A stretch of DNA of 64,000 nt from Naegleria gruberi (Eukaryota), in the NCBI GenBank assembly GCA_000004985.1, contig GG738853.1. One strand, given 5' to 3'. The position numbers and the translations under genes are program-made. This document shows, one piece after another, positions 4,398 to 62,356 of this stretch. Positions within the stretch are counted from its first letter, which is position 1, and each line of letters opens with the position of its first letter. Below the pieces are notes generated by a model. That model did no database searches and had not been told where the DNA came from. It was given only the letters and a program-made list of their open reading frames with translations.

Positions 4398-4468
4398 TAG
4401 GAAGACAGGGAATCGAACCCTGATCTTAGGAACCACAATCCCATGTTCTACCACTGAACTATCTCCCT
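4398..4468 (-). tRNA. tRNA-His (anticodon GUG)
   Basis: The reverse complement folds as a cloverleaf: acceptor AGGGAGA/TCTTCCT, D arm GTTC-AGTGGTA-GAAC, anticodon stem TGGGA/TCCTA, loop TTGTGGT (anticodon GTG), T arm CAGGG-TTCGATT-CCCTG, discriminator A73. There is no encoded G-1, consistent with post-transcriptional addition in eukaryotes. Confidence 0.85.
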
Positions 4469-6150: not shown

Positions 6151-7284
6151 TTAATTTTTTTGAAATAATTTGGAATTGATAAAATTCAACAATTCAGAGC
6201 TAGGTTCTTGTTCACTGAAATTCACCACCTTGGATTTGGAATTTTCCAAATCGGTATGTACAATTTGGTCAACATTAAGATGACATTTACCCAACTGAGC
6301 TACCAAAATATCCATCATGTGAACATATTGTTCATTCGAAATTTCTTCCAATTTCAATTCATTGGCCAAACTTGTCATTTTAACATGATGAAGTCCACAA
6401 GCTACAATATCACTCCTGAAAGATTGTAAATCTTGACTACTCAAATTCAGATTCATTGCCACGCCATGCATTGATACAAATCTCGATAATTGCAATCCAA
6501 TACTTGCTAACTTTCTCTTCTTTTCTTGTGAATTATTCTCATCAGACTGTTCACAAAGTTTCATACTACTGCTAATATAAATACCCATCTCTGATTCTCC
6601 TCCAACATTCAATTCAATTCTTTCACCCTTTTCAATATTCTCCACTTGGCCCTTCACATCTTTCAGTAAATCATTTGAAAATTGTTGAAGAAATGGAACA
6701 CACAGAGAACGAAGCATAAACTCATCTGAAAACCATTTGATATTCTTTTGGAGAAATGAACTATTCTCCAAATCAAAAAGTGGATACAAAACTAATTGAC
6801 CAGGACAGTGAAAGGTAATTCCACCTCCACGACCAATTTTGTGAATGGCCAATTGTCTTGGATTGTGAAGAATGTGATTTTTGGAAAAGGTTTCGTCAAA
6901 TCTTAACTTTCCAATAGTGAAACAAGATTCTGAATGTTCTGTTGCAATCATGTATTGTCTGTGTTGTAAATTATTGTTTTGATGTTCTTGTTTCAAATTC
7001 CTCAAATAATCGAATAGAAATTGTTGAAATTGTAAACTTTGTTCATATTTCGAATTGGATAAGAGAATTAAACAAAGAGAATCGTATCCTTCCTTTCCTT
7101 TTGTATTTCTAGTTTGTGCAGTATTGAATAATTCATTTTCTTTCTTTTCCATCCACTTTCCAAAACCTTCCGATATTGAATAGTTACATTTCTGATAAAC
7201 ATTCTTCCCAACATTCAATAATCCTCCACATTTATTACCAGAAATCAATCCAATCCTTCTCCTTCCACAACTCAATCGAAGCAT
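6151..7284 (-). CDS. lipoyl(octanoyl) transferase, LipB/LIPT2 type, mitochondrial
   Basis: Single 377-aa ORF. Motif KIGRGGGITFHCPGQLVLYP matches the RGGxxTYHGPGQLVxYP of LipB. A later KLASIGLQLSRFVSMHGVAMNLNL matches the LipB KIAAIGVRVSR..HGLALNV motif. The N-terminus MLRLSCGRRRIG looks like a presequence. Confidence 0.8.
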   Translation of the reverse strand: MLRLSCGRRRIGLISGNKCGGLLNVGKNVYQKCNYSISEGFGKWMEKKENELFNTAQTRNTKGKEGYDSLCLILLSNSKYEQSLQFQQFLFDYLRNLKQEHQNNNLQHRQYMIATEHSESCFTIGKLRFDETFSKNHILHNPRQLAIHKIGRGGGITFHCPGQLVLYPLFDLENSSFLQKNIKWFSDEFMLRSLCVPFLQQFSNDLLKDVKGQVENIEKGERIELNVGGESEMGIYISSSMKLCEQSDENNSQEKKRKLASIGLQLSRFVSMHGVAMNLNLSSQDLQSFRSDIVACGLHHVKMTSLANELKLEEISNEQYVHMMDILVAQLGKCHLNVDQIVHTDLENSKSKVVNFSEQEPSSELLNFINSKLFQKN

Positions 7285-7787
7285 TTTCTATCAAAATATC
7301 CCACAACTCAACTATTAATAATTCAATTCTCAGTATTTACCCAACAGTTGCTGCTAATCAACCATAATACTGCACACTACACACCAGCAATTGCTGAGAA
7401 TCCAAATAGCCACCACATACCTATTGAATGTTCTCTTTTTGATTGAACAATTGCTTCAATTTATCCAAATTTCCGTATTAAATTAGGTTATTTGTAAACA
7501 ACATCTCCATTTTTTCACCGTAAAACTGAGATTTCTCACCAACAAATCAAAAAACGACAATTTTTTCCCTTACTGTTTCTCTCTTACACTGCGTTTGTGT
7601 TAAAAACAGCACACAAAATGATTGAATTCTCAATATTATCAACAATGCAGAATTTCGTTCCATCACCAAATTGTTGCTTGTTTGCTGAGGTTGATTGTTG
7701 TTATTGTTGAGGATTCGAGTAGTGGATTGTGTGAGGGTTCAATTGTGTGGGCGTGGATAATTAATTAGCAGAGTGGAAAAAAAAGAG
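7285..7787. promoter_or_regulatory. shared bidirectional promoter region between the divergent LipB-like and lipoyl synthase genes
   Basis: A 503-bp spacer lies between two head-to-head start codons (7284 on the minus strand, 7788 on the plus strand). The plus strand is CA-rich over about 7290-7440 and GT-rich over about 7640-7790. A direct repeat CCACAACTCAA occurs at 7265-7275 and 7301-7311, and TCCCACAA at 7299-7306. Confidence 0.35.
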
Positions 7788-9245
7788 ATGAAGAGGAGCA
7801 GTGGGATAATAGACAAGATTGTGAAGGCAGGTTTGAAGAGGCAATTTTATTCGAAAGGTACTCATTGTGAGCAGTTGATGAAGATGAGTGGACGAAAGGG
7901 AGTGGATTTTCATTTGAGTAATTTGGGAGGAGGAATTTTGCATCAATGTAGTACTGCTGTTGGAGTTTCGAATAATGTTGAAGAAATGAATCAAACTTGG
8001 CAAGAACGAAGAAATATCAAGAGAATGAATCGATTGAAAGAAAAGAAAGTGGAAGAAACTCAACATTCTGAAGCACTTTTACAAGAAAGAGACGAAATGG
8101 TTAAAAAATCATTAGAAATATTACAATCCCGAATGGACGAAATGGAAAACTTTCAGATAATTCGTTCATTTCTTCCAAAATCTATATCAGATGCTGATTT
8201 ACTCACTAAATACTATCCAGCACTCAAAGATTCGGATAATTCTATTCGATATGATGGTAAACTAAAGAATGTAGATACCATTCGTGCAAAACCAAGATGG
8301 TTACTTTCGAATATAATTCCAAAGAATGAAGAATCAAATTCCAATTACAATCGTCTCAGAAACACATTAAGCGGACTCAAACTAAACACTGTCTGTGTAG
8401 AAGCCAAATGTCCAAACATTGGAGAATGTTGGGGAGGAAAATCCCAAACTAAACATCAAGATTCGAATATAAATATTCTAGACGAATCGAACAACCATCA
8501 AATGGCCACAGCAACCATCATGCTAATGGGTGATACTTGCACTCGTGGTTGCAGATTCTGCTCAGTCAAGACAAGCAAATGTCCTCCACCCTTAGATCCT
8601 TCAGAACCTGAAAACACCGCAGATGCCATCCATAAATGGGGTTTAGAATATGTTGTCTTGACATCTGTCGATCGAGATGATTTGACAGATGGAGGAGCTC
8701 AACATTTTTATGAAACTGTTCAAAAGATTAAGGAAAAAAATCCTAAAATTTTGGTGGAATGCTTAACTGGTGATTTTCAAGGAGATTTGGAATGTATTCG
8801 AAAGATGAGTTTATCTGGAATGGATGTTTATGCGCATAATGTTGAAACTGTGGAAGAGTTGACTCCACAAGTGAGAGATTACAGAGCTACCTTTCGTCAA
8901 TCATTGAAAGTTTTGAAACTTGTAAAGGAATTTAATCCGAAACTCATTACAAAAAGTTCAATAATGGTTGGCTTGGGAGAAAGTGATCAACAAATATTCG
9001 AAACCATGTGGGAATTGAAGAATGCAGGTGTAGATTGCATTACCATTGGTCAATACCTTCGTCCAACGAAAATGCACATGAAAGTTTTGGAATATTTCAC
9101 ACCAAAGAGATTCGAATTGTTACAAGAAATTGGAGAGAAAGTTTTTGGATTTAAATATGTGGCAAGTGGACCAATGGTTCGTTCAAGTTATAGAGCTGGA
9201 GAATTGTTTTTGAAGAATCTCATTTTGAAAGAACAAGTTGTTTAA
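7788..9245 (+). CDS. lipoyl synthase (LipA/LIAS, radical SAM) with about 165-aa N-terminal extension
   Basis: The track ORF starts at GTG 7773; the first in-frame ATG is 7788 ([24 protein letters not shown], presequence-like). The core carries [15 protein letters not shown] (auxiliary cluster), the [15 protein letters not shown] radical-SAM CxxxCxxC motif and KPRW. A coiled-coil-like stretch ([45 protein letters not shown]) precedes the conserved core. Confidence 0.9.
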
Positions 9246-20180: not shown

Positions 20181-21173
20181 ATGTCATCATCATCATCTGC
20201 TAATACTAAACCAGAATCACCAACAGCAATGCTATCCGATAATTTGTTCAATGTAAAGGGAAAGATTGTTGTCATTACTGGTGGCACGAGAGGAATTGGC
20301 TTGGCCATTGCACAAGGCTTTCTCATGAATGGAGTTGCTAAAGTTTACGTCTGTTCGAGAAGGAAGGAAGCCTGCCAACAAGTTGAAGATCAAGTGAATC
20401 AATTCGTTAAAAAGTACTATAGTGGAAAAGATCAAATTCCAAAACTTGTTGCTTTACAGGCTGATTTGGCCACAATGGAAGGAATTGAATCATTTTGTAG
20501 TCAAATTGTTGAAGATAAGGTTGATGTCTTGGTCAATAATAGTGGAACTAATTGGGGAGAATCAGTGGATACTTATCCTGAACATGCTTGGGATAAGGTT
20601 ATGGATTTGAATTTAAAGACACCTTTCTATGTGATTCAAAAGTTACTGCCAAAATTGAGAAATGCTGCCTCAATTGATAATCCAGCAAGAATTGTGAATA
20701 TTGGATCAATTAATGGAGTGACTTGTCCTAATATGGATACATTTGCATATTCTGTTTCTAAAGCTGGATTGCATCATTTGACTAAACACTTGGCACTTCG
20801 TTTGGCAAGTGATCATATTGCTGTCAATGCATTGGGTATGTTGTTTGATTTTGAAAATTTTATTGAATTTCAAATACTTTACAAATTATTTCACACTTGA
20901 TTTATTGGAATATTATTTTAAAATTAATTACATTTCTAAATTAATTTCTGCTGATATCATGTTACAGCTTGTGGATTCTTCTTTACCAAAATGACAAAAC
21001 AAACCTTTGAAGACTTTGGAGATCACATTATGGAAAATATTCCTCTTGGAAGAGTTTCCAAAGGATCTGACATTGTTGGAGCTACTCTCTTTCTTTCCAG
21101 TCTTGCATCTGCCTGGATGACTGGTAATATCATTGCCATCGATGGAGGCTCTCTCATCAAATCCAGTTTATAA
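20181..21173 (+). CDS. short-chain dehydrogenase/reductase (SDR family oxidoreductase)
   Basis: join(20181..20835,20968..21173), with a 132-nt intron (TTGG|GTATGT .. TTACAG|CT). Motifs are GKIVVITGGTRGIGLAIAQ (TGxxxGIG), NNSG and YSVSKAG (catalytic YxxxK). Exon 2 encodes ..CGFFFTKMTKQTFED..GNIIAIDGG. Confidence 0.8.
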
Positions 21174-21404
21174 AATCATTGAATCATTCTCAATATTACC
21201 TTCACTGCCACACACCACATCTACTTGTATCATACATTAAATATTTCAACAATTTACAATATTACCAAGCAGCTGTCATCTTTTTTAACCTATTTCCCAT
21301 TTGGCATTCCATTACTCCATCAAATTTTCCACATCTTGCTCTAAAGTTTACAAAAATCACCAAATTTGCCTTCGAACCGTACACACAACTCACGGACAAA
21401 AAAA

Positions 21405-23439
21405 ATGAAGAGAAAGATCTTGGGAAGAATCCTCTGCCAACCAACACAAGAGGCCAATAAACAACAACAGCTGATGAACCTGTTGTTGATCAATAATAAG
21501 AATCATCATCAGATGAAGATGAAAAATACATTAACAGAAAAAAGACAATTTTCGACACAACAAATTGTTGAATCTTCCTTTGGTCATCATCATCAATTTC
21601 TTGTTGATAACAAGCCTTTGATTGTTGATCAACAGGTGAGTCATATCAAGGGATCGACAAGGGAACCACTCATTCATGAAACCTTGTTTGAATTGTTTGA
21701 GAAACGTGTCTATGAGATGGATTCTCATCCATTGTTGCAAGTTAGTGGTTCCGAACATAATTTAAATCAGGATCAGACCTTTTCATGGAGAGAGGTTCAT
21801 GAGCAGAGTTTAAAACTTGCTAATGCTCTTCATAGATTGGGATATAAGAAGGAGGATCGTATTGGAATTTGGATGCCTAATTCACATGAATGGTCAATTG
21901 TGTTGATGGCAGCTGCCAAGTTGGGTTTGATTGTTGTAAATGTTAATCCTGCTTATAGAAAGCATGAATTGCAACATGCTTTGAATTTGGTACAATGCAA
22001 GGGTTTGATTATTGTTCCAGAATATAAGGGAACTAATTATGTTCAAATGTTATATGATTTGTGTCCTGGATTGGATAGAAATGTGAATCAAAATGGCGGA
22101 AAACATGCTTATTCAGATGAAATGCAAGTGCCAACTGTTGAATCTGAAGCATTACCTCATTTGAGACATATTTTCTACTGTTCTCCATCTAGAGCTTTCT
22201 TCCCTGGAATGATTGATTTTACAAATGAATTGTTGAACATGTCCATTCCAAAAGGATTGACTCATCAACAATGGATGAAAGCCAAGCATAATTGTAATGA
22301 TACTTTAAAGTAAGTAGTGCAGATCTTAAAGTGTGAAATTTAACATTTCCAAAAATTTAATTAGTATTCAATTTACATCTGGAACAACTGGATTACCAAA
22401 GGGAGCTGCCCTTTCACATTTTAACATTGTAAATAATTCATATTTTGTTGGAAAGGCAATGAATTTGCAGACTGGAGTTGACAAACTGGCCTTGTGTGTT
22501 CCATTTTACCATTGTTTTGGTTCAAATTTGGGATTCTTGGCCTTCTCCCTTCATGGTTGTGGAATTGTCTTGTCAAGCTTTGGATTTGATCCTGAAGCCA
22601 CTCTCAGAGCAGTTCACAAATACAAATGCACAGCTCTTCATGGCGTTCCAACAATGTTTATTGCTGAATTGGAACATCCAAACTTTAAGAAATATGACTT
22701 GTCATCCCTTCGTACAGGTATTGTGGCTGGTGCTTTGTGTCCAATGCCACTCATGAAAAGATGTATCAATGAAATGAATTTGAGAGAATTGATTAATGTT
22801 TATGGTATGACTGAGACATCTCCTTACTCATTCAATACACATATTAATGATAGTTTGGAAGTTCGTACCACCTCAGTTGGTAGAATCCATCCTCATGTTG
22901 AAGCAAGAGTTGTGGATCCAGAAACTGGAAAGGTTGTCCCATTTGGAACTCAAGGTGAATTGCAAGTGAGAGGATATTTGGTTATGAAATATTATTGGGA
23001 TCAACCAGAAGCCACTAAGAAAGTCATTGAAAATGGATGGATGAAGACTGGTGATATTGCCGTATTCAGAACCGATGAAAATGGACCATACTGTAGCATT
23101 GAAGGAAGAATTAAGGATATTATCATTAGAGGAGGTGAAAATATTGTACCACGTGAAATTGAGAATTTCCTCTACATGAATCCAAATATTAAGGATGTTG
23201 CAATTGTTGGAGTTCCTGATGAGAAATACGGAGAACAAATTTGTGCTTGTATTATATTGAAGAGTGGAAAATCATTAACTGAAGAAGAATTGAGAGCTTT
23301 CTGTCAAGGACAAATAGCTCACTACAAGATTCCAAAATATGTCATGTTTATGGATGAATTCCCAATGACTGTTACAGGAAAGATTCAAAAGTTTGTATTG
23401 CGTGATTGGGCAACAGACAAATTAGGATTGAAAAAGTAA
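21405..23439 (+). CDS. acyl-CoA synthetase / AMP-dependent ligase (ACSF2-like medium-chain), probably mitochondrial
   Basis: join(21405..22309,22365..23439), with a 55-nt intron (AAA|GTAAGT .. AATTAG|T, phase 2). The splice recreates the AMP-binding motif ..DTLN|IQFTSGTTGLPKGAALSH. Downstream motifs are YGMTETSP and TGDIAVFRTDENGPYCSIEGRIKDIIIRGGENI. The track ORF begins at TTG 21366; the first ATG is 21405 (MKRKILGRIL). Confidence 0.85.
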
Positions 23440-33036: not shown

Positions 33037-33110
33037 TGCCTCCCTTGGGAATCGAACCCAAGACCTCTGTCTTACTAGGACAGCGCTACTGCCAACTGAG
33101 CTAGGAAGGC
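33037..33110 (-). tRNA. tRNA-Thr (anticodon AGU)
   Basis: The reverse complement reads GCCTTCC-TA-GCTCAGTTGGCAGTAGC-G-CTGTC-CTAGTAA-GACAG-AGGTC-TTGGG-TTCGATT-CCCAA-GGGAGGC-A. The acceptor stem is fully paired and the anticodon loop is CTAGTAA (AGT). Confidence 0.85.
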
Positions 33111-39144: not shown

Positions 39145-42100
39145 TTAGTTTAATAATGGAGCTTGTTCCAAGTCTTGTTTCTTTTTAAATAGTTTCTTGA
39201 TATTATTCCAATTAGAGTAGTAAGAAACTTTTCCCTTGATTAAATTCGTCAAAGACTCCTCATCTTGTTGATAAATAATTATCAATGAAACTATTCGAAA
39301 GAAGATACCAAATACTGGAATCAAAACAATGCATAAATTCAAATCTTCAATTTTGTAATCGAATAAATCCAACGAAGATTGAATATCGAAAATGTTCATA
39401 TAGTTTCTAATTTCCATAATGTAGAGAGCTTCTTGTGCGTATCGAATATATGAGACGAAACTTAACCAATACAATGGAGGAACCTCCTGTCTCATCTGAG
39501 CAAGTGTAGGTCTAGAACCACTCACTAATTGCAACACTAACACAAAAATGGCACCTGCCAATTGAATTAATTCCAATTTGATAGTTAAACTGACAAGCAT
39601 TCCAATGCCAAATGTCGTAAAATGCAAAAGGAATAGAATTAAATAATACTCCCAGAATGAGGCAGTTGGAGAGTACAATGAAAAGAATATTGAAAGAAAG
39701 ACAATCGGTCCAAATACCATATTTGGAATCTGTTCTAAATTCTTTGCAATAAAATAGGCAAAAACGGACAAACCACTTGAACGTTCCTTCTTGAAAATTA
39801 CTTGAACTGATTTGGTTCCAAAGGTTCCAAGTGAAGACATGATTCCACATAATCCTAAAACCAAAGGAACAGTACTTGCAACATTGATTATTGGATTGTT
39901 TAAAGGATAGCCACAGATTTTCCTAATTGGGGATGGACACGTATTGATTATATCAACTGGCAATGGACCAATATAAGCATCCTTCAAATAAATCAATCCT
40001 AAACTCAATCCACCAATGTAAACCAACAAGCAATCAATGAAAAACGAAGCAAAATCACGAATTTTCAAAGTGAAAGATCTTTTCACACACATGTAAAAGT
40101 GAATGAGCGAATTTTGATTTCTGGCCTTTTCCTCCTGTTGTAACATCTTAATTGATGGTGTGTTGACTCGATCTTCAATGGTCACAAATTTTTCCCAAAT
40201 CTCAAACATTTCCTTACATGACAAAACTTCCACCGGAATTCCAGTTCTCTCAATTTGTGATTGATAAGTGAATTCTGGATCGTAAATTGCATCTAATAGG
40301 AAATCACTTGGATTAACATATGGAGGAGGAATCAGAGAAAGTTGTTTCTCGAAATAGTTCAATACTTGATTGGATTCGCCCATGTAAACGATTCGTCCAC
40401 CATTTCCCAAAAGAACAACATCGTCAAACATTTGAAAGATTTCGAATCTGGGTTGATGCAACACAGCTACTACTGTAATTCCACTCTCTGCAATGTCTTT
40501 CATGGATTTGGCAACTTCAAAACTACTGTATGCATCTAGTGAGCTAGTAGGTTCGTCCACTAAGTAGAATAAAAATTAGAAGAAACCATGAAAACTAAAC
40601 TTACAGAATAAAATGTAAGGACAAGTAACCAATTCCATTGCAATGCTAACTCTCTTACGTTGTCCACCTGATATACCTCTCTTTGATTCATCACCAATAA
40701 GAGAATGTCTTATATGATCCAAATCCAGATTTTGAATTACTCCGTTTACTATCTGATCTATTACCTTACTTGGAAAATTCAATCTAGTACGAGCGGAAAA
40801 ATAAATACACTCCTCCACAGTCAATTCTCTATACATACAATCTTCCTGTGTGACAAATGCTGTAATATTTTTAAATTCCTTAATTGATGACTTGACGCCA
40901 TTCACAAAAATGTCACCACTCACATTTGCATAACTGGCATTTCCTAAAATTGCTGATAAAAGAGTTGTTTTTCCACTTCCACTTGGTCCCATAATACAAG
41001 TTAACTTTCCAGGTCGAAACTTTCCATTCAAATTATGCAAAATTCGTTTGTTATTCGAAACTAAATCAAGTGACAATTTGTCAAATGAAATTTCCGCCTT
41101 TACATCTTTGTAAAGTCCTTTCATAATTTGTGAAACGGTCAACTTGGGAACAGTTTGAACGTAGGAACTTTCTGTAATGTGCGCCAACTTTCTCTTAATA
41201 AATTCTTCCATTCTTTTTTCTTCTTGTTTCTTGATCCAAAACTTTCTGGAAATGGAATAAATGAAATAGGTCAGAATTACAAGCCCAATAATGGATAAAT
41301 CGATCAAGAATCCAATAGCATATCCATCAAAGGATTTGGTACCTTCTGGACAATTGGAAAAGAGTGGACATGCAATTGGAAGGACAGTTCCTACTGTACA
41401 GTAATGACCTTGCGGACATTTTTTCTTCTCAATCGGAGTGGAACAATAGTAACCCGCTGGACATGGAGATGGGACATAGGATCCAACATCACAATATTGT
41501 GTCAATCGGCAATCTATCTTTGTACTTGGTGATGGACAGTAAAAACCTTTTGGACATGGATTTCTATCGGTGGTTCCAGGTGGACAATATAAAGACACAG
41601 TTTCATTAGGAATGCAAATAGTTGGCTCCATAATGGATGGCTCTTCACAGTAGGTATTCTCTGGACATGCTAAAACAGATCTATTTCCCTCCACAAATCT
41701 TCCTAAATTGCAATATTCTCCAATTGAGCATTCCTTAATTTGGTTATCTTGTAAGAATAAGCCAGGAGAGATTGGAAGAGGCGGGAAATAAGGAGTGATG
41801 CAAATGGTACCGTTGATGCAAGGTTGGGGAGATTCACTTCCTGAGGAGAAACAAGTTTCTGATCCTCGTGGAGTTTTCCATCCAAGATTTGAATATGAAT
41901 TTAAATCACTTTCGTCACTGGCAATTTCACACGAAAGTGGTTTAGTCATACCATCGAATGGACATTGAAAACCTTGAGGACACAACTGTCTAGCTCCACC
42001 ATAACAGAAATACCTCTTCTCACAATATTTCATCTGATTAGGTCGAATCGTATAGAATCCATTAGGAACTTTGTCCATAACCACATCATCAAAAGATGGA

Positions 42101-44058
42101 CACGACATTCCAGTGAAACAACTTGAAGTATATTGCCCAAATTGATTCAGTGTCACTGGTGAAGGTTTCATTGATTGACATTGTTGAGCGAAAGGTTTCA
42201 GAAACAAATCGTCTGGATTCGACTCCAATTCTTTACAAATTTGGTAAAATCGATTAGTGGATTGCAATTCCCATCTTTCTCTACTAATGGTCACAAACAA
42301 GTGTTGAGAATTTGGAGTAATTTCCATAAAATCTGCATCTCCCATTAAACTAATCTTGTTAAAATACGAAAGTATCAACCCATTATTCGAACACATTTCC
42401 TGTTGTAATCCGTAAACCAAAATTTCCTTCCCCGACTTGGAAATAAATATCTGAGAAATCCAATAATTCTGCAAAACATCCTTCATGAAATATTCTCCAT
42501 ATTGGGAAATTAATTCAATAAAGCAATTTGTGTTGTTTAGATATTTTGAGCAAATTATTTCCAATTCGGGAGTTCTGATAATATTTTCACATAATTGTTG
42601 AATATCCACATCTTTTCCAAAGTCTGTATTGAAAAAGGAAGTGTAAATGTCTGGTACATTGTAAAATCGTTGTTTCATTTCTAATATGGTTTCGCCTTTC
42701 ATTAGTTTGATTTCGGTGAATGTTTCGAATGATTTGGTGCATTCTCCTGTTGAAATATCAAAGTAAAAACCATCAGCAATTTGACATGTTTCGTTTCTTC
42801 CAACTGGATTACTGGAATTTCTTTCTGAAAATCTAAAAAAATCATAATTTGCAAATTCCAACAAGTTTCGAACATGTAAACTATTTGTTCCATTCGAAAG
42901 TTGAATGGCAATAATCAAGTTTAGTCCCTGGGCTTGATGAGCAATGACCTTAAAGCATGAAGATTTATAAAAATCGACTCTTCTAATTTCTTCAGCTGCC
43001 AACGAAGCACTCAAAATAGTTTCATCCTTATTGGTGAGATAGAAAGTGGACGAATCTATTTCATTCATATCCAAATACATATTCCTCTTTTGTAATTCAA
43101 TGATTTTCACTTGATCATTGGATGAAATCATCAACAACAATCTTTCGTATTGAAAATAGCTCGTTGTCAAGGCATTTCTAAATCCACCAACTTGATTTTT
43201 AAAACTAAACTGCAAACTATTCAAACTCTTGATGGTAATGTGAAATTCCAATTCATGAGAACAATCTTTCAATTTGTAAAATTTCATTACATTGGTGTCA
43301 TTTGTCAATTTCTCAACAATATTCAAATAAATTGAATCCTCAAATTCGAATATACGAATCATATTCGAAGGATCTGTCAACTCAAATGTTGCACAAGTTT
43401 CAATAGATGAAATATCAAAAGTTTTTGCCTTAAATAATGAAAGACTATTTCCATACGAAATGGTCGCCACAAAATAATCCGTTCCATTTGTAAATGCTGT
43501 CAAAGTTCTGACATTACTGCCGTCACTTGTCTTTCCTACATGAACAGTTTCTCCTGTGTTGAAATTAATTAAAATGATATGTCCAGAAATCAACCCCAAA
43601 ACAATAAATCTCCTTGTTTCATTCTCTTCATCTTGAAATTCAATTGTTGTAATCTTGGAAATGTATTTACATTTATCACGAGGTGAAATTAGTTTGGAAT
43701 AGTCCAGTTTCGAACTGCTATGTGGATGGATCAGTGTGCCATTCATGTAACTGTATACATTCGGATCAGATGTTGAACATATTGCTCCATCTTCAACATT
43801 CAACAAGAAATCTTCATCACTAAACAGAAATGGAACACTCGCAAAAGGATTCGAATATTTACACCACGAAGGTTGTATATCAGAGTTAATTAATTCCTCA
43901 TGTGAACACAACTCTTGTCTAAATGCAGCACCACCACTCTTGTAACACAAATTGCAATTGACCCATTTGATAATTGAAAACAATGAAATTGTGATGAAAA
44001 ATAGAAATAAAAAGCGATGTTTGTTTGAGTTGGAAACACGTGTCGACTTGTGTTTCAT
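39145..44058 (-). CDS. ABC transporter, G-family half transporter (NBD-TMD) preceded by signal peptide, about 880-aa Cys-rich extracellular domain and an extra TM helix
   Basis: complement(join(39145..40559,40605..44058)), with a 45-nt intron splitting ..ELVTCPYILF|LDEPTSSLD. The NBD has Walker A GPSGSGKTTLL, signature SGGQRKRVSIAMEL and Walker B ILFLDEPTS. The C-terminal TMD has 6 helices. Upstream are a signal peptide (MKHKSTRVSNSNKHRFLFLFFITISLFSIIKWVNC; first ATG 44058, the track ORF extends to 44139) and a large domain. Its proximal part has repeated CP.G.YC ephrin-receptor/TNFR-like Cys repeats (CPPGTTDRNPCPKGFYCPSPSTKIDC..CPAGYYCSTPIEKKKCPQGHYCTVG). A TM helix (YAIGFLIDLSIIGLVILTYFIYSI) follows. 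Confidence 0.8.
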
Positions 44059-44315
44059 TCTGTTTTTTTCTCTTAATTGCAAATAGAAAGTTTTGGGAAA
44101 CAAATGAAACAACATAATGTAAATTCCATGATCTTGCAATTATAATTATGAAATTGGAATGTAATTTGAATATAGGATCTAAATAGGAGTTAAAAATGCT
44201 GACAATGACATTTTGTAGTCATGGGGTGGCCATTGAGCAAACCTTTATCTTTGGAGAATCTAAAACTATTAGTTTTTGGATATGGATAACAAAAATTACT
44301 AAAAACATTAAAAGA

Positions 44316-44399
44316 TCCGATGAGACGGAATCGAACCGCCGACCACAGGATAACAGTTACAACTACAGTCCCATGCTCTACCAGCTGAGCTATCATCGG
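44316..44399 (-). tRNA. tRNA-Tyr (anticodon GUA) with 11-nt intron
   Basis: The reverse complement reads CCGATGA-TA-GCTC-AGCTGGTA-GAGC-A-TGGGA-CTGTAG[ttgtaactgtt]A-TCCTG-TGGTC-GGCGG-TTCGATT-CCGTC-TCATCGG-A. The acceptor stem is perfect. The intron lies 3-prime of position 37, as is canonical for eukaryotic tRNA-Tyr. Confidence 0.8.
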
Positions 44400-58319: not shown

Positions 58320-59504
58320 TTATTGGTTATTTTCTGATGTGTTCTTCATTCTCTTTTGATAGATTCTGAACACAATAATACATCCAAGAACTTGATTAAT
58401 AATTTGTTGAGCATAGAGCACAAAAACAAGAGCAATTTTGGTGGCATCCCACTCACCATCCTCTTCCATAACATGATAGACCAAAACACCTGAAATAATT
58501 GTATCAATGAAGAGAGCTCCCAATACAAATCCACACATTATCAATCTCTTCTTTACAAGCAAAATTGGAAGAATGGTAACCAAAACACAAGGTATCAAGT
58601 GCACAACTGAATTCACAATGACCATGGCAGCTGTATAAAAGAATAGAATTGAAGTAATGACAATAAAGACAGTCATTAATCTATTCTCCTTCACCCACTC
58701 AATAATATTCCTTGGTTTGTTCTCCACTTCATCTACCTTGATATGGTGTGCCTCAATGTCAACATCAACTGGAGCATGAATAAGAGTTGGTTGAATCATT
58801 TCTGGAGTTTCTCTTGGTAAATCATAGATAATTTGTTGTTGTGGAGGAATCATGACTGGTTGACTGTAATGATTTGGATTAATGTATTCAACAGGTTGAA
58901 ACTCTTGGGTAGTAGTACTGTACGGATTTTGATGATCATAAATAGTGTCATGAACTAAATTGTCATTGTAAGGAACACTTGCTTCTTGATGCATTCCATA
59001 TTCGATTGCAGAAGATTTATACGAATCTTGGCTCATTGGTTGTTGGTAATTGTTATTATTATTACTTGCGTTCATCATTTCTACTGACTGAATTTCTTGG
59101 TTATTGTATTGATTTTCAACTGGCTCTTCTTGTTGAATAGGAGACGAAACTTGAAAATATTGATTTGAAACACTTTTGAAAGATGCAAATTCCAAATCAG
59201 ATTCGTCTATTTCTTCTTCGCTTTGAGAAATGATACTAACTGGTGAATCAAAAGAATTTGAATAATAATTTTGATTAATTTGTAAATTGAGAGAAAGCTG
59301 TGGTTGATTGGACGAAACTGTTTTACTACTATTCGAATAATCAAAAGCTACAGTTGTTGGAGTTGAAGAAGGAGGAGATGATGAATGAATAATAAGAGTT
59401 GGAACTTCCTCTTCGTAATTAGAATCTTCTTGTTGAAAGTAAGGATTGTGGTTTAATTGACTTGTATTTTCTTCAACTGTTTTCTGGTTGTTAATGCGAG
59501 TCAT
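58320..59504 (-). CDS. hypothetical membrane protein (low-complexity N-terminus, 3-4 C-terminal TM helices)
   Basis: 394-aa ORF. The N-terminal roughly 270 aa are N/Q/S/Y-rich. The C-terminus has hydrophobic helices (LMTVFIVITSILFFYTAAMVIVNSVVHLIPCVLVTILPILLV, GFVLGALFIDTIISGVLVY, ALVFVLYAQQIINQVLGCIIVF). Confidence 0.4.
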   Translation of the reverse strand: MTRINNQKTVEENTSQLNHNPYFQQEDSNYEEEVPTLIIHSSSPPSSTPTTVAFDYSNSSKTVSSNQPQLSLNLQINQNYYSNSFDSPVSIISQSEEEIDESDLEFASFKSVSNQYFQVSSPIQQEEPVENQYNNQEIQSVEMMNASNNNNNYQQPMSQDSYKSSAIEYGMHQEASVPYNDNLVHDTIYDHQNPYSTTTQEFQPVEYINPNHYSQPVMIPPQQQIIYDLPRETPEMIQPTLIHAPVDVDIEAHHIKVDEVENKPRNIIEWVKENRLMTVFIVITSILFFYTAAMVIVNSVVHLIPCVLVTILPILLVKKRLIMCGFVLGALFIDTIISGVLVYHVMEEDGEWDATKIALVFVLYAQQIINQVLGCIIVFRIYQKRMKNTSENNQ

Positions 59505-59648: not shown

Positions 59649-60674
59649 TTACAATTTATTATTTGCTTTTAAAATTTGCAAGTAATTTATCTTATTCACA
59701 GGTGCTGATGATTTCTCACTGATCTGTTCCACTTTCAGTTCGGAAATCAAATGCTCAGGATGTTTGTAACGTTTCGAATTTAAACACCAAACTCCAAAAC
59801 CTTTCATTGCTTCCTTAATCGAGTTTCTTACTTGACAAGTTTCCATCCTTTCCAATTCCATAAGAAAATCATACAATCTAGCAATAGTCATCAAGAAACT
59901 CTGTTCTGTCGATTGTTTAGTTTCATTTTGTAAGCAAATGGCATGGTTGACCAAAGTTCCATCCCTCAATTCTTTAGGAAAAGATGCCAAATCATTAATT
60001 AGGAAGAAACATTCATTGGAAATTCGTTGAAACTTTTCAATTTCCAAAGTGGTCACAAAATCGAATTGTAATTTAGCCATTTCCATATATATCGAACCTA
60101 GAGAATCAATTCTTCGCCACTGATCACATTTTTCAACTGAAATTTGACTTCCATCAGCCCAGTAAGTTGCCATCTCCAAGCTTGTTTTGAAATATTTCAC
60201 CATTTCGAATTGTAATGTTCGAATCTGAAACTGTGTGAAGAATGAACAAGAGTTGAATAATTCGTCCATCACATAGAGACCTAAACGAATCGATGGATTG
60301 TGGGTTCTTGAAAAGTACTCTTCTTGACCTTCAAATTTCTCAACCAGTTGTATGTGCGTGATCAACTCCTTTCGAATAGTTTCGTCTACATCTTTCAAAC
60401 AATCACAAGCGTCATCAACAATTGACAAGTACAATGTAATCAATGCAAATATCCTCATAATCTTGTAAGAAACTTGTGGAAACGGTCCACATGCGCATCC
60501 ACAACAATCAGCAATTCCATACTTGTGATAATTATCTGAAGGAAATTTGAAAACTTGAAAACACAAATTTTGTAATTCTGTTGTAATTTCCTTGCAATGT
60601 TTGTTGATTTTTGGTGAAGAAGGATTCCATAGCGTTGTTATTTGTTGATAGTATTCATCGATTGACCAATTCAT
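59649..60674 (-). CDS. class I terpene synthase (microbial-type TPS, about 341 aa)
   Basis: Single ORF. Aspartate-rich motif DDACD (LYLSIVDDACDCLKD) is a DDxxD match. NSE/DTE triad NDLASFPKE fits (N/D)Dxx(S/T)xxxE exactly, about 140 aa downstream. A C-terminal RY pair is KRYKHPE. The size and layout match bacterial, fungal and dictyostelid-type TPS. Confidence 0.7.
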   Translation of the reverse strand: MNWSIDEYYQQITTLWNPSSPKINKHCKEITTELQNLCFQVFKFPSDNYHKYGIADCCGCACGPFPQVSYKIMRIFALITLYLSIVDDACDCLKDVDETIRKELITHIQLVEKFEGQEEYFSRTHNPSIRLGLYVMDELFNSCSFFTQFQIRTLQFEMVKYFKTSLEMATYWADGSQISVEKCDQWRRIDSLGSIYMEMAKLQFDFVTTLEIEKFQRISNECFFLINDLASFPKELRDGTLVNHAICLQNETKQSTEQSFLMTIARLYDFLMELERMETCQVRNSIKEAMKGFGVWCLNSKRYKHPEHLISELKVEQISEKSSAPVNKINYLQILKANNKL

Positions 60675-61501
60675 TTCTTCAAGAATAGTTTTCGGTTTCG
60701 TCTATTTTTCTGTTGTTACTTTTTCGAAACTGCTTGTGGATTCTCAAAATAATGGAGCTAGTAAGCAAGGTCGGCTTGTTTACTCAACACCTTGTGTTTG
60801 ATCTATGATGAAAATGAAGCGCTTTTCATGGAGGAACGTCACTTGTCTTGACTCTTTGTGACTTTTATGGACGTAGGAAATAGTAAGTTTGGCAAGTTGA
60901 GCATTGACCCAATTGGGATTTATTCAATAATTATCTTGTTTCCATTCCATATTTACCTATTTTCTTCCATCATTCTTAATAACAATATGAAAAGAAATTA
61001 TTAGAAACTGTAGTTTCATTGTGGTGTTACTGGCAACAGTGTTAGAGAATGATATTGGTTTCAACAATAACGTTTTTCACTGACTAAATGATTATATTGA
61101 AATTTATAAAGTGTTGATTATAATAATTATCATTCAACGCATTGTATGGAAAACATTCCTGATATTAAAAAAGACTACAGCACCACAGGTTCCCAAGTTG
61201 TCTCCAACCTCAGTACTGATGTGGCTCGACTATACTTAACTTCTCAAATCGGACGGGATGAGGTGCATTCATCGTGATATGGCCGTAGCCATTCATAATC
61301 ATAAAATCTGAATTTTAAATGAATTCCCTTGGTCCAGTATTGAAAATTGAGATAGTAATGATGTTGTTCGCCATTCTAAACCTTAAATTAAGGTTTACCA
61401 ATAGTCTCAACCTTAAAAGTAAGCCAAGGCAGTATCCTATGTTATCATGTGTATTAATTTAGGATTCCATGCAAATTAAGCAACTCTTTATTTAATTTTG
61501 A

Positions 61502-62356
61502 TTATTTATCTTTCGAATATTGTTTCTTTTCGGTGAATTTCACAAAATTAAGGTTAGTTCCAATCAATTTATCAATTAAACAATACCACGCCCCATAGCA
61601 GTCTTGATAATGTGTATGATGATAGGTATGCTCACTGGCATCCAATAAAATTGACTTGGTGACAGGACTAGTTCTGTAATATTTCATAAAATCAAATCCT
61701 GAATGAGAATGAATTGCTTCAAACGTCTTAACCACAGTCCAAACAAAAGACCAAAATAAATGAGCATGTGTCAATAAAGGACCACTCATGACAGCTGGCA
61801 CTGTCACTAAAAATTCAATTGGATGAAAATATTGAGAACCAATTGAGACTGAGTATTTGATTTCATGATGAAGGTAATGAACATACTTGTAAACATATGG
61901 AATTTTGTGTAATAGAAAGTGAACTATGAATGTGAAAATGTCATCACATAAAATAAATATTGGAATGATGACTAATTGACTGACAAGTGACTCGTTTTGT
62001 AAATCTTGATAGCTGCGACTGAAAGGAGGTGGAAAGAACACACCCATCAATATACTCACTGGTAATCCAATTAAAATATGAATTTTCCAAACTTGTTTTA
62101 CAATTTTCATGTAAAGTTCTGAATCGAGAGGCGAGTTTTTTGGATTTATCAAGAATTGATCCATAAAATTCAAATATTTGTTGATTATCCAATGAACTGA
62201 ATGTCCATTTAGTTGTCTTGTCTTTGCTATTTGATAAATAACAAAAGGTCCATTCAAAAACCAAAAAGAAATTATTTGACAAATGACAGGATAAATTCCA
62301 TAGCATACCCATGAAGGAACTGATTCAATGTAGGTCTTCCATAAGTACTCCAACAT
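61502..62356 (-). CDS. fatty acid hydroxylase superfamily oxidase (sterol desaturase / C-4 methyl sterol oxidase-like)
   Basis: 284-aa ORF with about 4 TM segments and three His boxes: HFLLH, HYLHHE and HTYHHTHY. These fit the HX3H / HX2HH / HX2HH pattern of the ERG3/ERG25/SC5D family. Confidence 0.75.
   Translation of the reverse strand: MLEYLWKTYIESVPSWVCYGIYPVICQIISFWFLNGPFVIYQIAKTRQLNGHSVHWIINKYLNFMDQFLINPKNSPLDSELYMKIVKQVWKIHILIGLPVSILMGVFFPPPFSRSYQDLQNESLVSQLVIIPIFILCDDIFTFIVHFLLHKIPYVYKYVHYLHHEIKYSVSIGSQYFHPIEFLVTVPAVMSGPLLTHAHLFWSFVWTVVKTFEAIHSHSGFDFMKYYRTSPVTKSILLDASEHTYHHTHYQDCYGAWYCLIDKLIGTNLNFVKFTEKKQYSKDK

What the first reader, a model, noticed from the sequence alone, without database searches (positions are those of the whole stretch)
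59649..62356. Terpene synthase next to a sterol-desaturase-family oxidase: candidate terpenoid biosynthetic gene pair
A compact class I terpene synthase (DDACD plus NDLASFPKE plus C-terminal RY) lies about 830 bp from a three-His-box membrane oxidase of the fatty-acid-hydroxylase superfamily. Both are on the minus strand with no gene between them. In social amoebae and fungi, microbial-type TPS genes are sometimes clustered with tailoring oxidases (TPS plus P450 clusters are established). A TPS paired with an ERG3/ERG25-like oxidase would be an unusual tailoring combination and predicts an oxygenated terpenoid product.
Basis: partly seen in the sequence, partly recalled or inferred. Interest (0 to 1): 0.6.

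Follow-up and report, generated by a model that had tools for sequence, protein, structure and literature searches.

The report
Naegleria terpene synthase beside divergent oxidase
In the amoeba Naegleria gruberi an intact terpene synthase gene lies one 5S rRNA gene away from a divergent, non-housekeeping membrane oxidase; both genes are real, but nothing yet shows that they work together.

Summary
The window is Naegleria gruberi nuclear DNA. Both ORFs match its predicted proteins XP_002680653.1 (terpene synthase, TPS) and XP_002680654.1 (oxidase). One statement is wrong: a complete 5S rRNA gene (61172-61290, minus strand, 98 bits) lies between the two genes.

The TPS passes Pfam PF19086. Its DDACD, NDLASFPKE and RY motifs align with the catalytic motifs of solved bacterial sesquiterpene synthases.

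The oxidase passes PF04116, keeps all nine conserved histidines and models at pLDDT 95 over the full 284 aa. The NCBI model of 181 aa is therefore N-terminally truncated.

Both coding sequences are far less diverged from a 98-99% identical strain than the intergenic DNA (pN/pS about 0.1-0.2).

The oxidase is not among the N. gruberi ERG25/ERG3 genes listed in the literature. It belongs to a small divergent clade with a Willaertia magna protein.

No available homologue of the oxidase has a TPS next to it. This covers Willaertia (±10 kb) and three metagenomic protist contigs. Expression could not be tested.

TPS genes in N. gruberi were already reported in 2016. Functional coupling remains an untested hypothesis, which I put at about 0.3.

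The parts
59649..60674 (-). Terpene synthase gene: 341 aa, single exon, identical to N. gruberi XP_002680653.1 / NAEGRDRAFT_54762 / D2V660.
   Evidence: ORF. Pfam PF19086 at 44.9 bits and PF03936 at 23.4 bits. Identical to P0239. Against a variant strain it has 1 non-synonymous and 3 synonymous differences, 0.39% compared with 2.84% in intergenic DNA.
60402..60416 (-). Asp-rich metal-binding motif DDACD (residues 87-91).
   Evidence: Aligned with DDQCD of T-muurolol synthase 9hqi.
59970..59996 (-). NSE/DTE metal-binding motif NDLASFPKE (residues 227-235). The candidate diphosphate-sensor Arg186/187 lies 40-41 residues upstream.
   Evidence: Aligned with NDVLSLEKE of pentalenene synthase 5nx6 and NDVLSYPKE of 9hqi.
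59766..59771 (-). C-terminal RY pair (residues 302-303).
   Evidence: Aligned with RY at 314-315 of pentalenene synthase 5nx6 (domain 2).
61172..61290 (-). 5S rRNA gene (RNA polymerase III unit) lying between the two protein genes and followed by a T6 terminator run.
   Evidence: Rfam RF00001 at 98 bits, E 4e-20, model positions 1-120 of 120. Sequence. Single copy in the window.
61502..62356 (-). Membrane di-iron oxidase of the FA_hydroxylase superfamily, in the methylsterol-oxidase-like branch: 284 aa, single exon. Its C-terminal 181 aa equal N. gruberi XP_002680654.1 / NAEGRDRAFT_31446 / D2V661.
61907..61921 (-). His box 1, HFLLH (residues 146-150).
   Evidence: H146 and H150 are invariant in 46 sequences.
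61865..61879 (-). His box 2, HYLHH (residues 160-164).
61616..61630 (-). His box 3, HTYHH (residues 243-247).

Best explanation
The locus holds three separate transcription units on the minus strand of a Naegleria gruberi chromosome. In order they are the oxidase gene, a 5S rRNA gene read by RNA polymerase III, and the TPS gene.

Shown: the TPS is an intact, selectively constrained, single-domain microbial-type class I terpene synthase. Inferred: it binds three Mg2+ through DDACD and NDLASFPKE, ionises a prenyl diphosphate and cyclises the carbocation. The substrate is most likely farnesyl diphosphate, judged from the protein's size and its weak best matches to bacterial sesquiterpene synthases.

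Shown: the oxidase is an intact, constrained, divergent paralogue in the methylsterol-oxidase-like branch of the FA_hydroxylase superfamily. It is not one of the listed housekeeping ERG25/ERG3 genes. Inferred: it uses a histidine-ligated di-iron centre, with electrons probably from cytochrome b5, to hydroxylate or oxidise a membrane-soluble lipid.

The available evidence does not link the two enzymes. Their adjacency is more likely coincidental than a dedicated pathway, and the oxidase clade most likely acts on a sterol or another lipid independently of the TPS.
For: - Organism and gene identity.
- TPS family membership and motifs.
- Oxidase family, histidines and fold.
- Purifying selection on both genes against a 98-99% identical strain (contigs L001 and L005). 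Substitutions are 0.39% in the TPS and 0.58% in the oxidase, against 2.84% in intergenic DNA (Fisher p 3e-6 and 2e-4). pN/pS is 0.08 and 0.16.
- The 5S gene lies between them.
- The oxidase is absent from the published list of N. gruberi ERG25/ERG3 genes.
- Its nearest relatives form a small clade with Willaertia magna KAL9641556.1 at 36% identity. Sequences that sources name methylsterol monooxygenase or FAXDC2 are only about 25-31% identical.
- No TPS lies beside the oxidase homologue in W. magna within ±10 kb (L002), nor in L004, L006-L009 or L011.
- The rest of the 64-kb window has no other recognisable isoprenoid gene.
- N. gruberi TPS genes were already reported (PMC6902781, citing Chen et al. 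2016).
Against: - Chance adjacency of a TPS to an FA_hydroxylase gene is a priori rare. Only a handful of such genes exist among roughly 15,700 N. gruberi genes (gene total from my own knowledge). That rarity argues for a link.
- The oxidase is demonstrably not a core sterol enzyme, so it is free to be a tailoring enzyme.
- The homologues whose contexts were examined are only 30-40% identical and may not be functional equivalents.
- One close homologue (L003) sits at a contig end, so its downstream neighbour is unknown.
- Whether W. magna or other Naegleria species have this TPS at all could not be checked.
- The pair is kept in the near-identical strain, but that is uninformative.
Confidence: 0.55

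Rival explanations
1. The two genes form a true two-gene terpenoid pathway. The TPS makes a sesquiterpene (or other terpene) scaffold, and the neighbouring methylsterol-oxidase-like di-iron enzyme hydroxylates it or oxidises one of its methyl groups. The oxidase would play the role that a P450 plays in the Dictyostelium DdTPS8-CYP521A1 cluster.
For: - The genes are tandem on the same strand, 827 bp apart.
- Both are intact and constrained.
- The oxidase is a divergent paralogue outside the listed housekeeping ERG25/ERG3 set.
- Its family oxidises methyl groups on isoprenoid-derived sterols (established knowledge of ERG25/SMO).
- Adjacency to this specific family is unlikely by chance.
- A TPS plus oxidase cluster exists in another amoeba (PMC6524965, listed).
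Against: - No homologue of the oxidase examined has a TPS neighbour.
- An unrelated 5S rRNA gene sits between the genes.
- The two upstream regions share no motif beyond chance-level 13-mers.
- One full-text search found no precedent for a TPS with an FA_hydroxylase cluster.
- There are no expression or product data.
- The pair was picked post hoc from a genome-wide scan, which inflates apparent coincidences.
Confidence: 0.3
2. The oxidase is simply a housekeeping sterol enzyme (a C-4 methyl oxidase or C-5 desaturase isoform) that happens to lie next to the TPS.
For: - Its closest named relatives are methylsterol monooxygenase / SMO / FAXDC2-type proteins.
- Naegleria makes ergosterol through cycloartenol and needs C-4 demethylation (PMC6136796).
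Against: - XP_002680654.1 is not among the four ERG25 candidates or the one ERG3 candidate listed for N. gruberi. Those candidates are 64-80% identical to N. fowleri proteins and 35-47% to human ones.
- This protein reaches only about 84 bits and 25-31% identity to any SMO-like sequence, and it clusters apart from them.
- The word-based search found no close homologue at all.
Confidence: 0.08
3. The TPS-like ORF is a decaying or catalytically dead relic, so there is no terpene for any oxidase to act on.
For: - The protein is very divergent. It found only itself in the word-based search.
- It has only weak PDB and NCBIfam matches.
- Its single-sequence structure model is uninformative (pLDDT 36).
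Against: - The reading frame is uninterrupted.
- All three catalytic motifs are present and align to solved enzymes.
- The Pfam score is well above the cut-off.
- Substitution density is about seven-fold lower than in intergenic DNA, and pN/pS is 0.08.
Confidence: 0.05

Closest known systems
Microbial-type class I terpene synthases of amoebae (dictyostelid DdTPS family; N. gruberi TPSs reported by Chen et al. 2016 PNAS, as cited in PMC6902781)
   Same: Single alpha-domain protein of about 340 aa with DDxxD, NSE/DTE and RY motifs. It matches Pfam PF19086/PF03936. N. gruberi TPS sequences were already used in a published phylogeny, where they grouped with dictyostelid and some Physarum TPSs, nearer to fungal ones.
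   Different: No N. gruberi TPS has been biochemically characterised, to my knowledge. I could not confirm that this particular gene (NAEGRDRAFT_54762) is one of those used, because the 2016 paper is not held. This protein is so divergent that the word-based sequence search found no relative.
Bacterial sesquiterpene synthases (pentalenene synthase 5nx6/6q4s, (+)-T-muurolol synthase 9hqi, alpha-amorphene and isoafricanol synthase models)
   Same: These are the best, though weak, matches in the PDB and NCBIfam. The metal-binding motifs and the RY pair align residue for residue.
   Different: E-values are only 0.03-0.6 against the PDB, and scores are 16-19 bits against equivalog cut-offs of 500-540. 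It is therefore not a member of any of these product-specific families, and the product cannot be predicted.
Sterol C-4 methyl oxidases (ERG25 / MSMO1 / plant SMO1-SMO2) and FAXDC2
   Same: Same Pfam family and the same three His boxes plus the HSG histidine. It has the same four-helix membrane architecture and lacks a fused cytochrome b5 domain. These are its nearest named relatives.
   Different: It is not one of the ERG25 genes listed for N. gruberi. Identity to these proteins is only about 25-31%. It forms a separate clade with Willaertia and uncultured protist sequences. Its substrate is unknown.
DdTPS8-CYP521A1 terpene synthase / cytochrome P450 cluster of Dictyostelium discoideum (PMC6524965)
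   Same: A TPS gene physically next to an oxygenase gene in an amoeba.
   Different: The oxygenase class differs: a di-iron membrane enzyme rather than a haem P450. The organisms belong to different eukaryotic supergroups. A 5S rRNA gene lies between the genes here. There is no evidence for co-expression or for a product.
Scs7p sphingolipid alpha-hydroxylase (PDB 4zr0/4zr1)
   Different: Identity is 13-14%. Scs7p carries a cytochrome b5 domain and acts on ceramide acyl chains. Foldseek did not detect it.

Membership tests
Class I terpene synthase, microbial type (Pfam PF19086 / PF03936) | Profile HMM score above the curated cut-off | tested here: met
   PF19086 scores 44.9 bits against a cut-off of 23.7, E 1.5e-11, over residues 81-259. 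PF03936 scores 23.4 bits, just under its 26.3 cut-off.
Class I terpene synthase, microbial type (Pfam PF19086 / PF03936) | Asp-rich DDxx(D/E) motif | tested here: met
   DDACD at 87-91, aligned to DDQCD of T-muurolol synthase.
Class I terpene synthase, microbial type (Pfam PF19086 / PF03936) | NSE/DTE motif (N/D)D(L/I/V)x(S/T)xxxE | tested here: met
   NDLASFPKE at 227-235, aligned to NDVLSLEKE and NDVLSYPKE of solved enzymes.
Class I terpene synthase, microbial type (Pfam PF19086 / PF03936) | C-terminal RY pair and an upstream diphosphate-sensor Arg | tested here: met
   RY at 302-303 aligns with RY314-315 of pentalenene synthase. R186/R187 lie 40-41 residues before the NSE motif. Their role as the sensor is inferred from position only.
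Class I terpene synthase, microbial type (Pfam PF19086 / PF03936) | All-alpha terpene cyclase fold | tested here: inconclusive
   The single-sequence AF2 model is all-helical but has pLDDT 36, so it is unusable for fold comparison. No homologues were available to build an alignment.
Class I terpene synthase, microbial type (Pfam PF19086 / PF03936) | Converts a prenyl diphosphate into terpenes | not testable with these tools
   This needs a recombinant enzyme assay with GPP, FPP and GGPP, followed by GC-MS.
FA_hydroxylase superfamily (Pfam PF04116), methylsterol-oxidase-like branch | Profile HMM score above the curated cut-off | tested here: met
   62.5 bits against a cut-off of 31, E 7e-17, residues 133-267.
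FA_hydroxylase superfamily (Pfam PF04116), methylsterol-oxidase-like branch | Three histidine boxes (HX3H, HX2HH, HX2HH) that ligate the di-iron centre | tested here: met
   HFLLH, HYLHH and HTYHH plus H218. H146, H150, H160, H163, H164, H218, H243, H246 and H247 are invariant in 46 sequences.
FA_hydroxylase superfamily (Pfam PF04116), methylsterol-oxidase-like branch | Helical integral-membrane fold shared with the solved family member Scs7p | tested here: met
Housekeeping sterol C-4 methyl oxidase (ERG25) or C-5 desaturase (ERG3) orthologue | Being the gene assigned to that step in Naegleria, with high conservation to N. fowleri, yeast and human enzymes | tested here: not met
   The published N. 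gruberi ERG25/ERG3 accessions do not include XP_002680654.1. The best SMO-like matches reach only about 84 bits and 25-31% identity. It forms a separate clade in the NJ tree.
Terpenoid biosynthetic gene cluster (TPS plus tailoring oxidase, as in DdTPS8-CYP521A1) | Physical adjacency of the two genes | tested here: met
   Same strand, 827 bp apart, but with a 5S rRNA gene between them.
Terpenoid biosynthetic gene cluster (TPS plus tailoring oxidase, as in DdTPS8-CYP521A1) | Pairing conserved in related genomes | tested here: not met
   No TPS lies within ±10 kb of the W. magna homologue, and no flanking genes are shared. None is present in L004, L006-L009 or L011. Both genes are present in a 98-99% identical strain, on separate contigs that end at the 5S gene. 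This is consistent with the same arrangement but uninformative. Other Naegleria genomes could not be searched.
Terpenoid biosynthetic gene cluster (TPS plus tailoring oxidase, as in DdTPS8-CYP521A1) | Co-expression of the genes | not testable with these tools
   No expression data were reachable. The gene identifiers were not found in any held paper or in the supplements examined.
Terpenoid biosynthetic gene cluster (TPS plus tailoring oxidase, as in DdTPS8-CYP521A1) | The oxidase acts on the TPS product | not testable with these tools
   This needs heterologous co-expression and product analysis.

The most novel reading that the evidence does not exclude
Naegleria gruberi carries a minimal terpenoid pathway in which a methylsterol-oxidase-like di-iron membrane enzyme, rather than a cytochrome P450, oxygenates the product of the neighbouring terpene synthase. 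This would be the first TPS with an FA_hydroxylase gene cluster in a eukaryote and the first terpenoid gene cluster in Discoba. It predicts an unknown oxygenated (sesqui)terpenoid made by this amoeba.
Probability: 0.27. Interest if true: 0.6.

Novelty: new member of a known kind. Interest (0 to 1): 0.35.

Why it matters
If the two enzymes were coupled, this would add a new class of tailoring enzyme to terpenoid pathways: a recruited sterol-methyl-oxidase paralogue. It would also give a first handle on terpenoid chemistry in Heterolobosea, a deep eukaryotic lineage that includes the pathogen N. fowleri.

As it stands, the practical gains are modest:
- The TPS is shown to be an intact, constrained gene worth expressing.
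- The neighbouring oxidase is shown to be a lineage-restricted paralogue distinct from the core sterol enzymes.
- The oxidase's public gene model should be extended by 103 N-terminal residues.
- An unremarked 5S rRNA gene is mapped between the two genes.

Tried and rejected
- Word-based homologue searches with each protein returned only the proteins themselves.
- The profile search with alignment A1 returned only distant SMO-like proteins, not the closest relatives.
- A metagenome scan with the TPS found nothing.
- A metagenome scan with the oxidase clade found only L004 again and one distant SMO-like locus without a TPS.
- Viral-contig scans gave nothing for the TPS and only distant giant-virus FA_hydroxylases at 23-29% full-length identity, plus two 40-residue fragments at 54%, for the oxidase. 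These are irrelevant.
- The single-sequence AF2 model of the TPS was unusable, so no fold search was possible for it.
- The afdb50 fold library was unavailable.
- Foldseek against the PDB gave no significant match for the oxidase.
- An exact look-up of the NCBI TPS protein found no record, so the second N. gruberi accession (EFC35757.1) could not be placed.
- Chen et al. 2016 (PMC5087028) and the N. gruberi differentiation microarray paper are not held.
- The gene identifiers were not found in any paper or in the supplements of two Naegleria genome papers.
- A search for shared promoter elements gave only chance-level 12-13-mers.
- I first read one search's '100% identity' as meaning that all four TPS differences in strain L001 were synonymous. 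Direct translation showed that one is A55V.
- The idea that the oxidase is the housekeeping ERG25/ERG3 was rejected.
- The idea that the TPS is a pseudogene was rejected.
Full report
**1. What is in the sequence**

The window is AT-rich (31-40% G+C in 2-kb windows, mostly about 33%) and eukaryotic in character. ORF listing gives a 341-aa ORF at 59649-60674 (-) and a 284-aa ORF at 61502-62356 (-). They are 827 bp apart.

The 341-aa protein is identical to N. gruberi XP_002680653.1 / EFC47909.1 / NAEGRDRAFT_54762 / UniProt D2V660. Residues 104-284 of the other ORF are identical to XP_002680654.1 / NAEGRDRAFT_31446 / D2V661. Both lie on a 695,587-bp scaffold. The organism is therefore the heterolobosean amoeba Naegleria gruberi, not a dictyostelid or a fungus.

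**2. Check of the observation**

Terpene synthase (TPS):
- It matches Pfam Terpene_syn_C_2 (PF19086) at 44.9 bits against a cut-off of 23.7, E 1.5e-11.
- It carries DDACD at 87-91, NDLASFPKE at 227-235 and RY at 302-303. Arg186/187 lie 40-41 residues before the NSE motif.
- In phmmer alignments to solved enzymes these motifs line up with DDQCD and NDVLSYPKE of (+)-T-muurolol synthase, and with NDVLSLEKE and RY314-315 of pentalenene synthase.
- NCBIfam gives only faint matches to amorphene and isoafricanol synthase models.

Oxidase:
- It matches Pfam FA_hydroxylase (PF04116) at 62.5 bits against a cut-off of 31.
- It has HFLLH 146-150, HYLHH 160-164, H218 in an HSG context, and HTYHH 243-247.
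- All nine histidines are invariant in a 46-sequence alignment.

One statement fails. Rfam finds a complete 5S rRNA gene at 61172-61290 on the same strand (98 bits, E 4e-20, model positions 1-120 of 120). A T6 run follows it. The intergenic space therefore holds an independent RNA polymerase III gene.

**3. Are the genes real and functional?**

Two contigs from sample ERR1078381 (L001 and L005) are 98.8% and 98.3% identical to the window. They give a small population-level test.

| Region | Substitutions | Non-syn : syn | pN/pS | Fisher p vs intergenic |
|---|---|---|---|---|
| TPS CDS | 0.39% | 1 : 3 (A55V) | 0.08 | 3e-6 |
| Oxidase CDS | 0.58% | 2 : 3 (V54I, I96V) | 0.16 | 2e-4 |
| Pooled intergenic DNA | 2.84% | n/a | n/a | n/a |

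The counts are small, but both genes behave like their conserved neighbours.

The oxidase's public 181-aa model is N-terminally truncated, for three reasons:
- The full 284-aa ORF was called in another assembly (P0238).
- Homologues align from residue 2-5.
- An AlphaFold2 model built on 46 homologues has pLDDT 94.9 across the whole length.

**4. What kind of oxidase is it?**

An exhaustive HMMER search of 1.84 billion representatives found 1774 relatives. Only a handful are close:
- Willaertia magna KAL9641556.1, 36% identity, full length.
- An ENA metagenome protein, 40%.
- A 134-aa fragment, 54%.
- A protein from assembly GCA_006365135.1, 32%.

Everything else scores about 84 bits or less. 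The named ones among these are methylsterol monooxygenase / SMO / FAXDC2-type proteins. In a neighbour-joining tree the window protein groups with the Willaertia and metagenomic sequences, apart from the named ones.

S1 Table of Zhou et al. 2018 (PMC6136796) assigns the sterol steps as follows:
- N. gruberi ERG25 is XP_002683254.1, XP_002670136.1, XP_002683131.1 and XP_002668883.1.
- N. gruberi ERG3 is XP_002683255.1.
- These are 64-80% identical to N. fowleri enzymes and 35-47% to human ones.

XP_002680654.1 is not among them. This is a divergent, lineage-restricted paralogue of unknown substrate.

**5. Is the pair a cluster?**

Only adjacency speaks for it. I retrieved the genomic context of every close oxidase homologue that had one:
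- **W. magna (L002, ±10 kb).** There is no TPS-like sequence by tblastn. None of the window's flanking genes (PI-PLC, the 394-aa gene, the ARM-repeat gene) is present.
- **GCA_006365135.1 contig (L004).** The downstream gene encodes a coiled-coil protein.
- **120-160-kb (one 69.5-kb) protist metagenome scaffolds (L006-L009).** They carry two tandem FA_hydroxylase copies followed by a GTPase gene.
- **L011.** The neighbours are TBC-domain, coiled-coil and PIP-kinase genes.
- **L003.** The contig ends 71 bp after the gene, so it is uninformative.

These homologues are only 30-40% identical, so this is weak negative evidence.

Other points:
- The rest of the window has ordinary, unrelated genes and no other isoprenoid gene.
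- The two upstream regions share only chance-level 13-mers.
- No expression data were reachable.
- Other Naegleria genomes could not be searched with the tools available.

**6. Weighing**

A TPS lying next to one of the few FA_hydroxylase genes in a genome of about 15,700 genes (gene number from my own knowledge) is unlikely for any pre-specified pair. That keeps the hypothesis alive. However, the pair was selected post hoc. One full-text search found no precedent for this enzyme combination. The oxidase clade also exists elsewhere without a TPS neighbour.

My estimates are:
- About 0.3 that the enzymes are functionally coupled.
- About 0.55 that they are independent neighbours, with the oxidase acting on a sterol or another lipid.
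- The small remainder goes to the housekeeping-sterol and dead-TPS alternatives.

**7. Comparison with what is known, and novelty**

TPS genes in N. gruberi were reported by Chen et al. 2016. They were reused in a 2019 phylogeny, where they grouped with dictyostelid and some Physarum TPSs, nearer to fungal enzymes (PMC6902781). The 2016 paper itself is not held. I could therefore not verify that this gene is among those used.

The TPS meets every sequence-level criterion of a class I microbial-type TPS. The oxidase meets those of the FA_hydroxylase superfamily but fails orthology to ERG25/ERG3. The 'cluster' meets only the adjacency criterion.

I classify the finding as a new (uncharacterised) member of known kinds. 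The interesting but unproven possibility is a non-P450 tailoring partner for a TPS.

**8. Verdict**

Interest is 0.35. The decisive work is synteny in other heterolobosean genomes, co-expression in N. gruberi RNA-seq, and heterologous co-expression with product analysis.

Noticed in passing
window 61172-61290 (-): A complete 5S rRNA gene with a T6 terminator sits in the intergenic region between the oxidase and the TPS. It is the only copy in the window. Two metagenome contigs from the related strain (L001, L005) both end at or near it, as expected for a dispersed multi-copy gene.
   Followed up: yes
window 61172-61266 versus L001 1-95: The 95 nt of the 5S gene covered by the variant-strain contig differ at 4 positions (4.2%). 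That is as much as intergenic DNA and is odd for an rRNA gene. It may reflect contig-end mixing of paralogous 5S copies or a drifting copy.
   Followed up: partly
window 61502-62356 (-): The public gene model NAEGRDRAFT_31446 / XP_002680654.1 (181 aa, starting at Met104) lacks the first 103 residues. The full 284-aa ORF is supported by homologue alignments, by another assembly's gene call and by a pLDDT-95 model.
   Followed up: yes
window 58320-59504 (-): A 394-aa ORF starts only 144 bp downstream of the TPS stop. It has a low-complexity N-terminal half and a hydrophobic C-terminal part, with no Pfam or NCBIfam match. It is conserved against the variant strain (0.51%; 2 non-synonymous and 4 synonymous changes). 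It is closer to the TPS than the oxidase is. Its function is unknown.
   Followed up: partly
window 6151-7284 (-) and 7773-9245 (+): A lipoyl/octanoyl transferase-ligase catalytic-domain gene (LplA-B_cat) and a lipoyl synthase gene (Radical_SAM plus LIAS_N) lie head to head. They are a functionally related neighbour pair from the same cofactor pathway in the same window.
   Followed up: no
S1 Table of PMC6136796 (not in the window): The N. gruberi ERG25 candidate XP_002683254.1 and the ERG3 candidate XP_002683255.1 have consecutive accession numbers. This suggests that two sterol-pathway FA_hydroxylase genes are adjacent elsewhere in this genome. It was not verified.
   Followed up: no
window 21366-22313 (+) and 22333-23439 (+); 20181-20900 (+): Two consecutive ORFs carry the N- and C-terminal halves of one AMP-binding (acyl-CoA synthetase-like) enzyme. 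They are probably a single gene split by a short intron or a frameshift. A short-chain dehydrogenase gene lies next to them.
   Followed up: no
window 39145-40560 (-) and 40576-44139 (-): The ABC2_membrane and ABC_tran domains fall on two abutting ORFs. They likely form one large ABC transporter gene with an intron, about 15 kb from the TPS.
   Followed up: no
window 4398-4468 (-), 33037-33110 (-), 44316-44399 (-): Three tRNA genes were found: His-GTG, Thr-AGT and Tyr-GTA. The Tyr gene is 84 nt long, which is consistent with an intron.
   Followed up: no
L006 8624-9010 and 9935-10549: Two tandem FA_hydroxylase copies lie on a 160-kb protist metagenome scaffold (31.6% G+C). The gene calls there look fragmented. 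The organism was not identified.
   Followed up: partly
L012-L020: Giant-virus metagenome contigs (GVMAG) encode FA_hydroxylase-family proteins that are 23-29% identical to the oxidase clade over full-length matches (two loci match only about 40 residues, at 54%).
   Followed up: no
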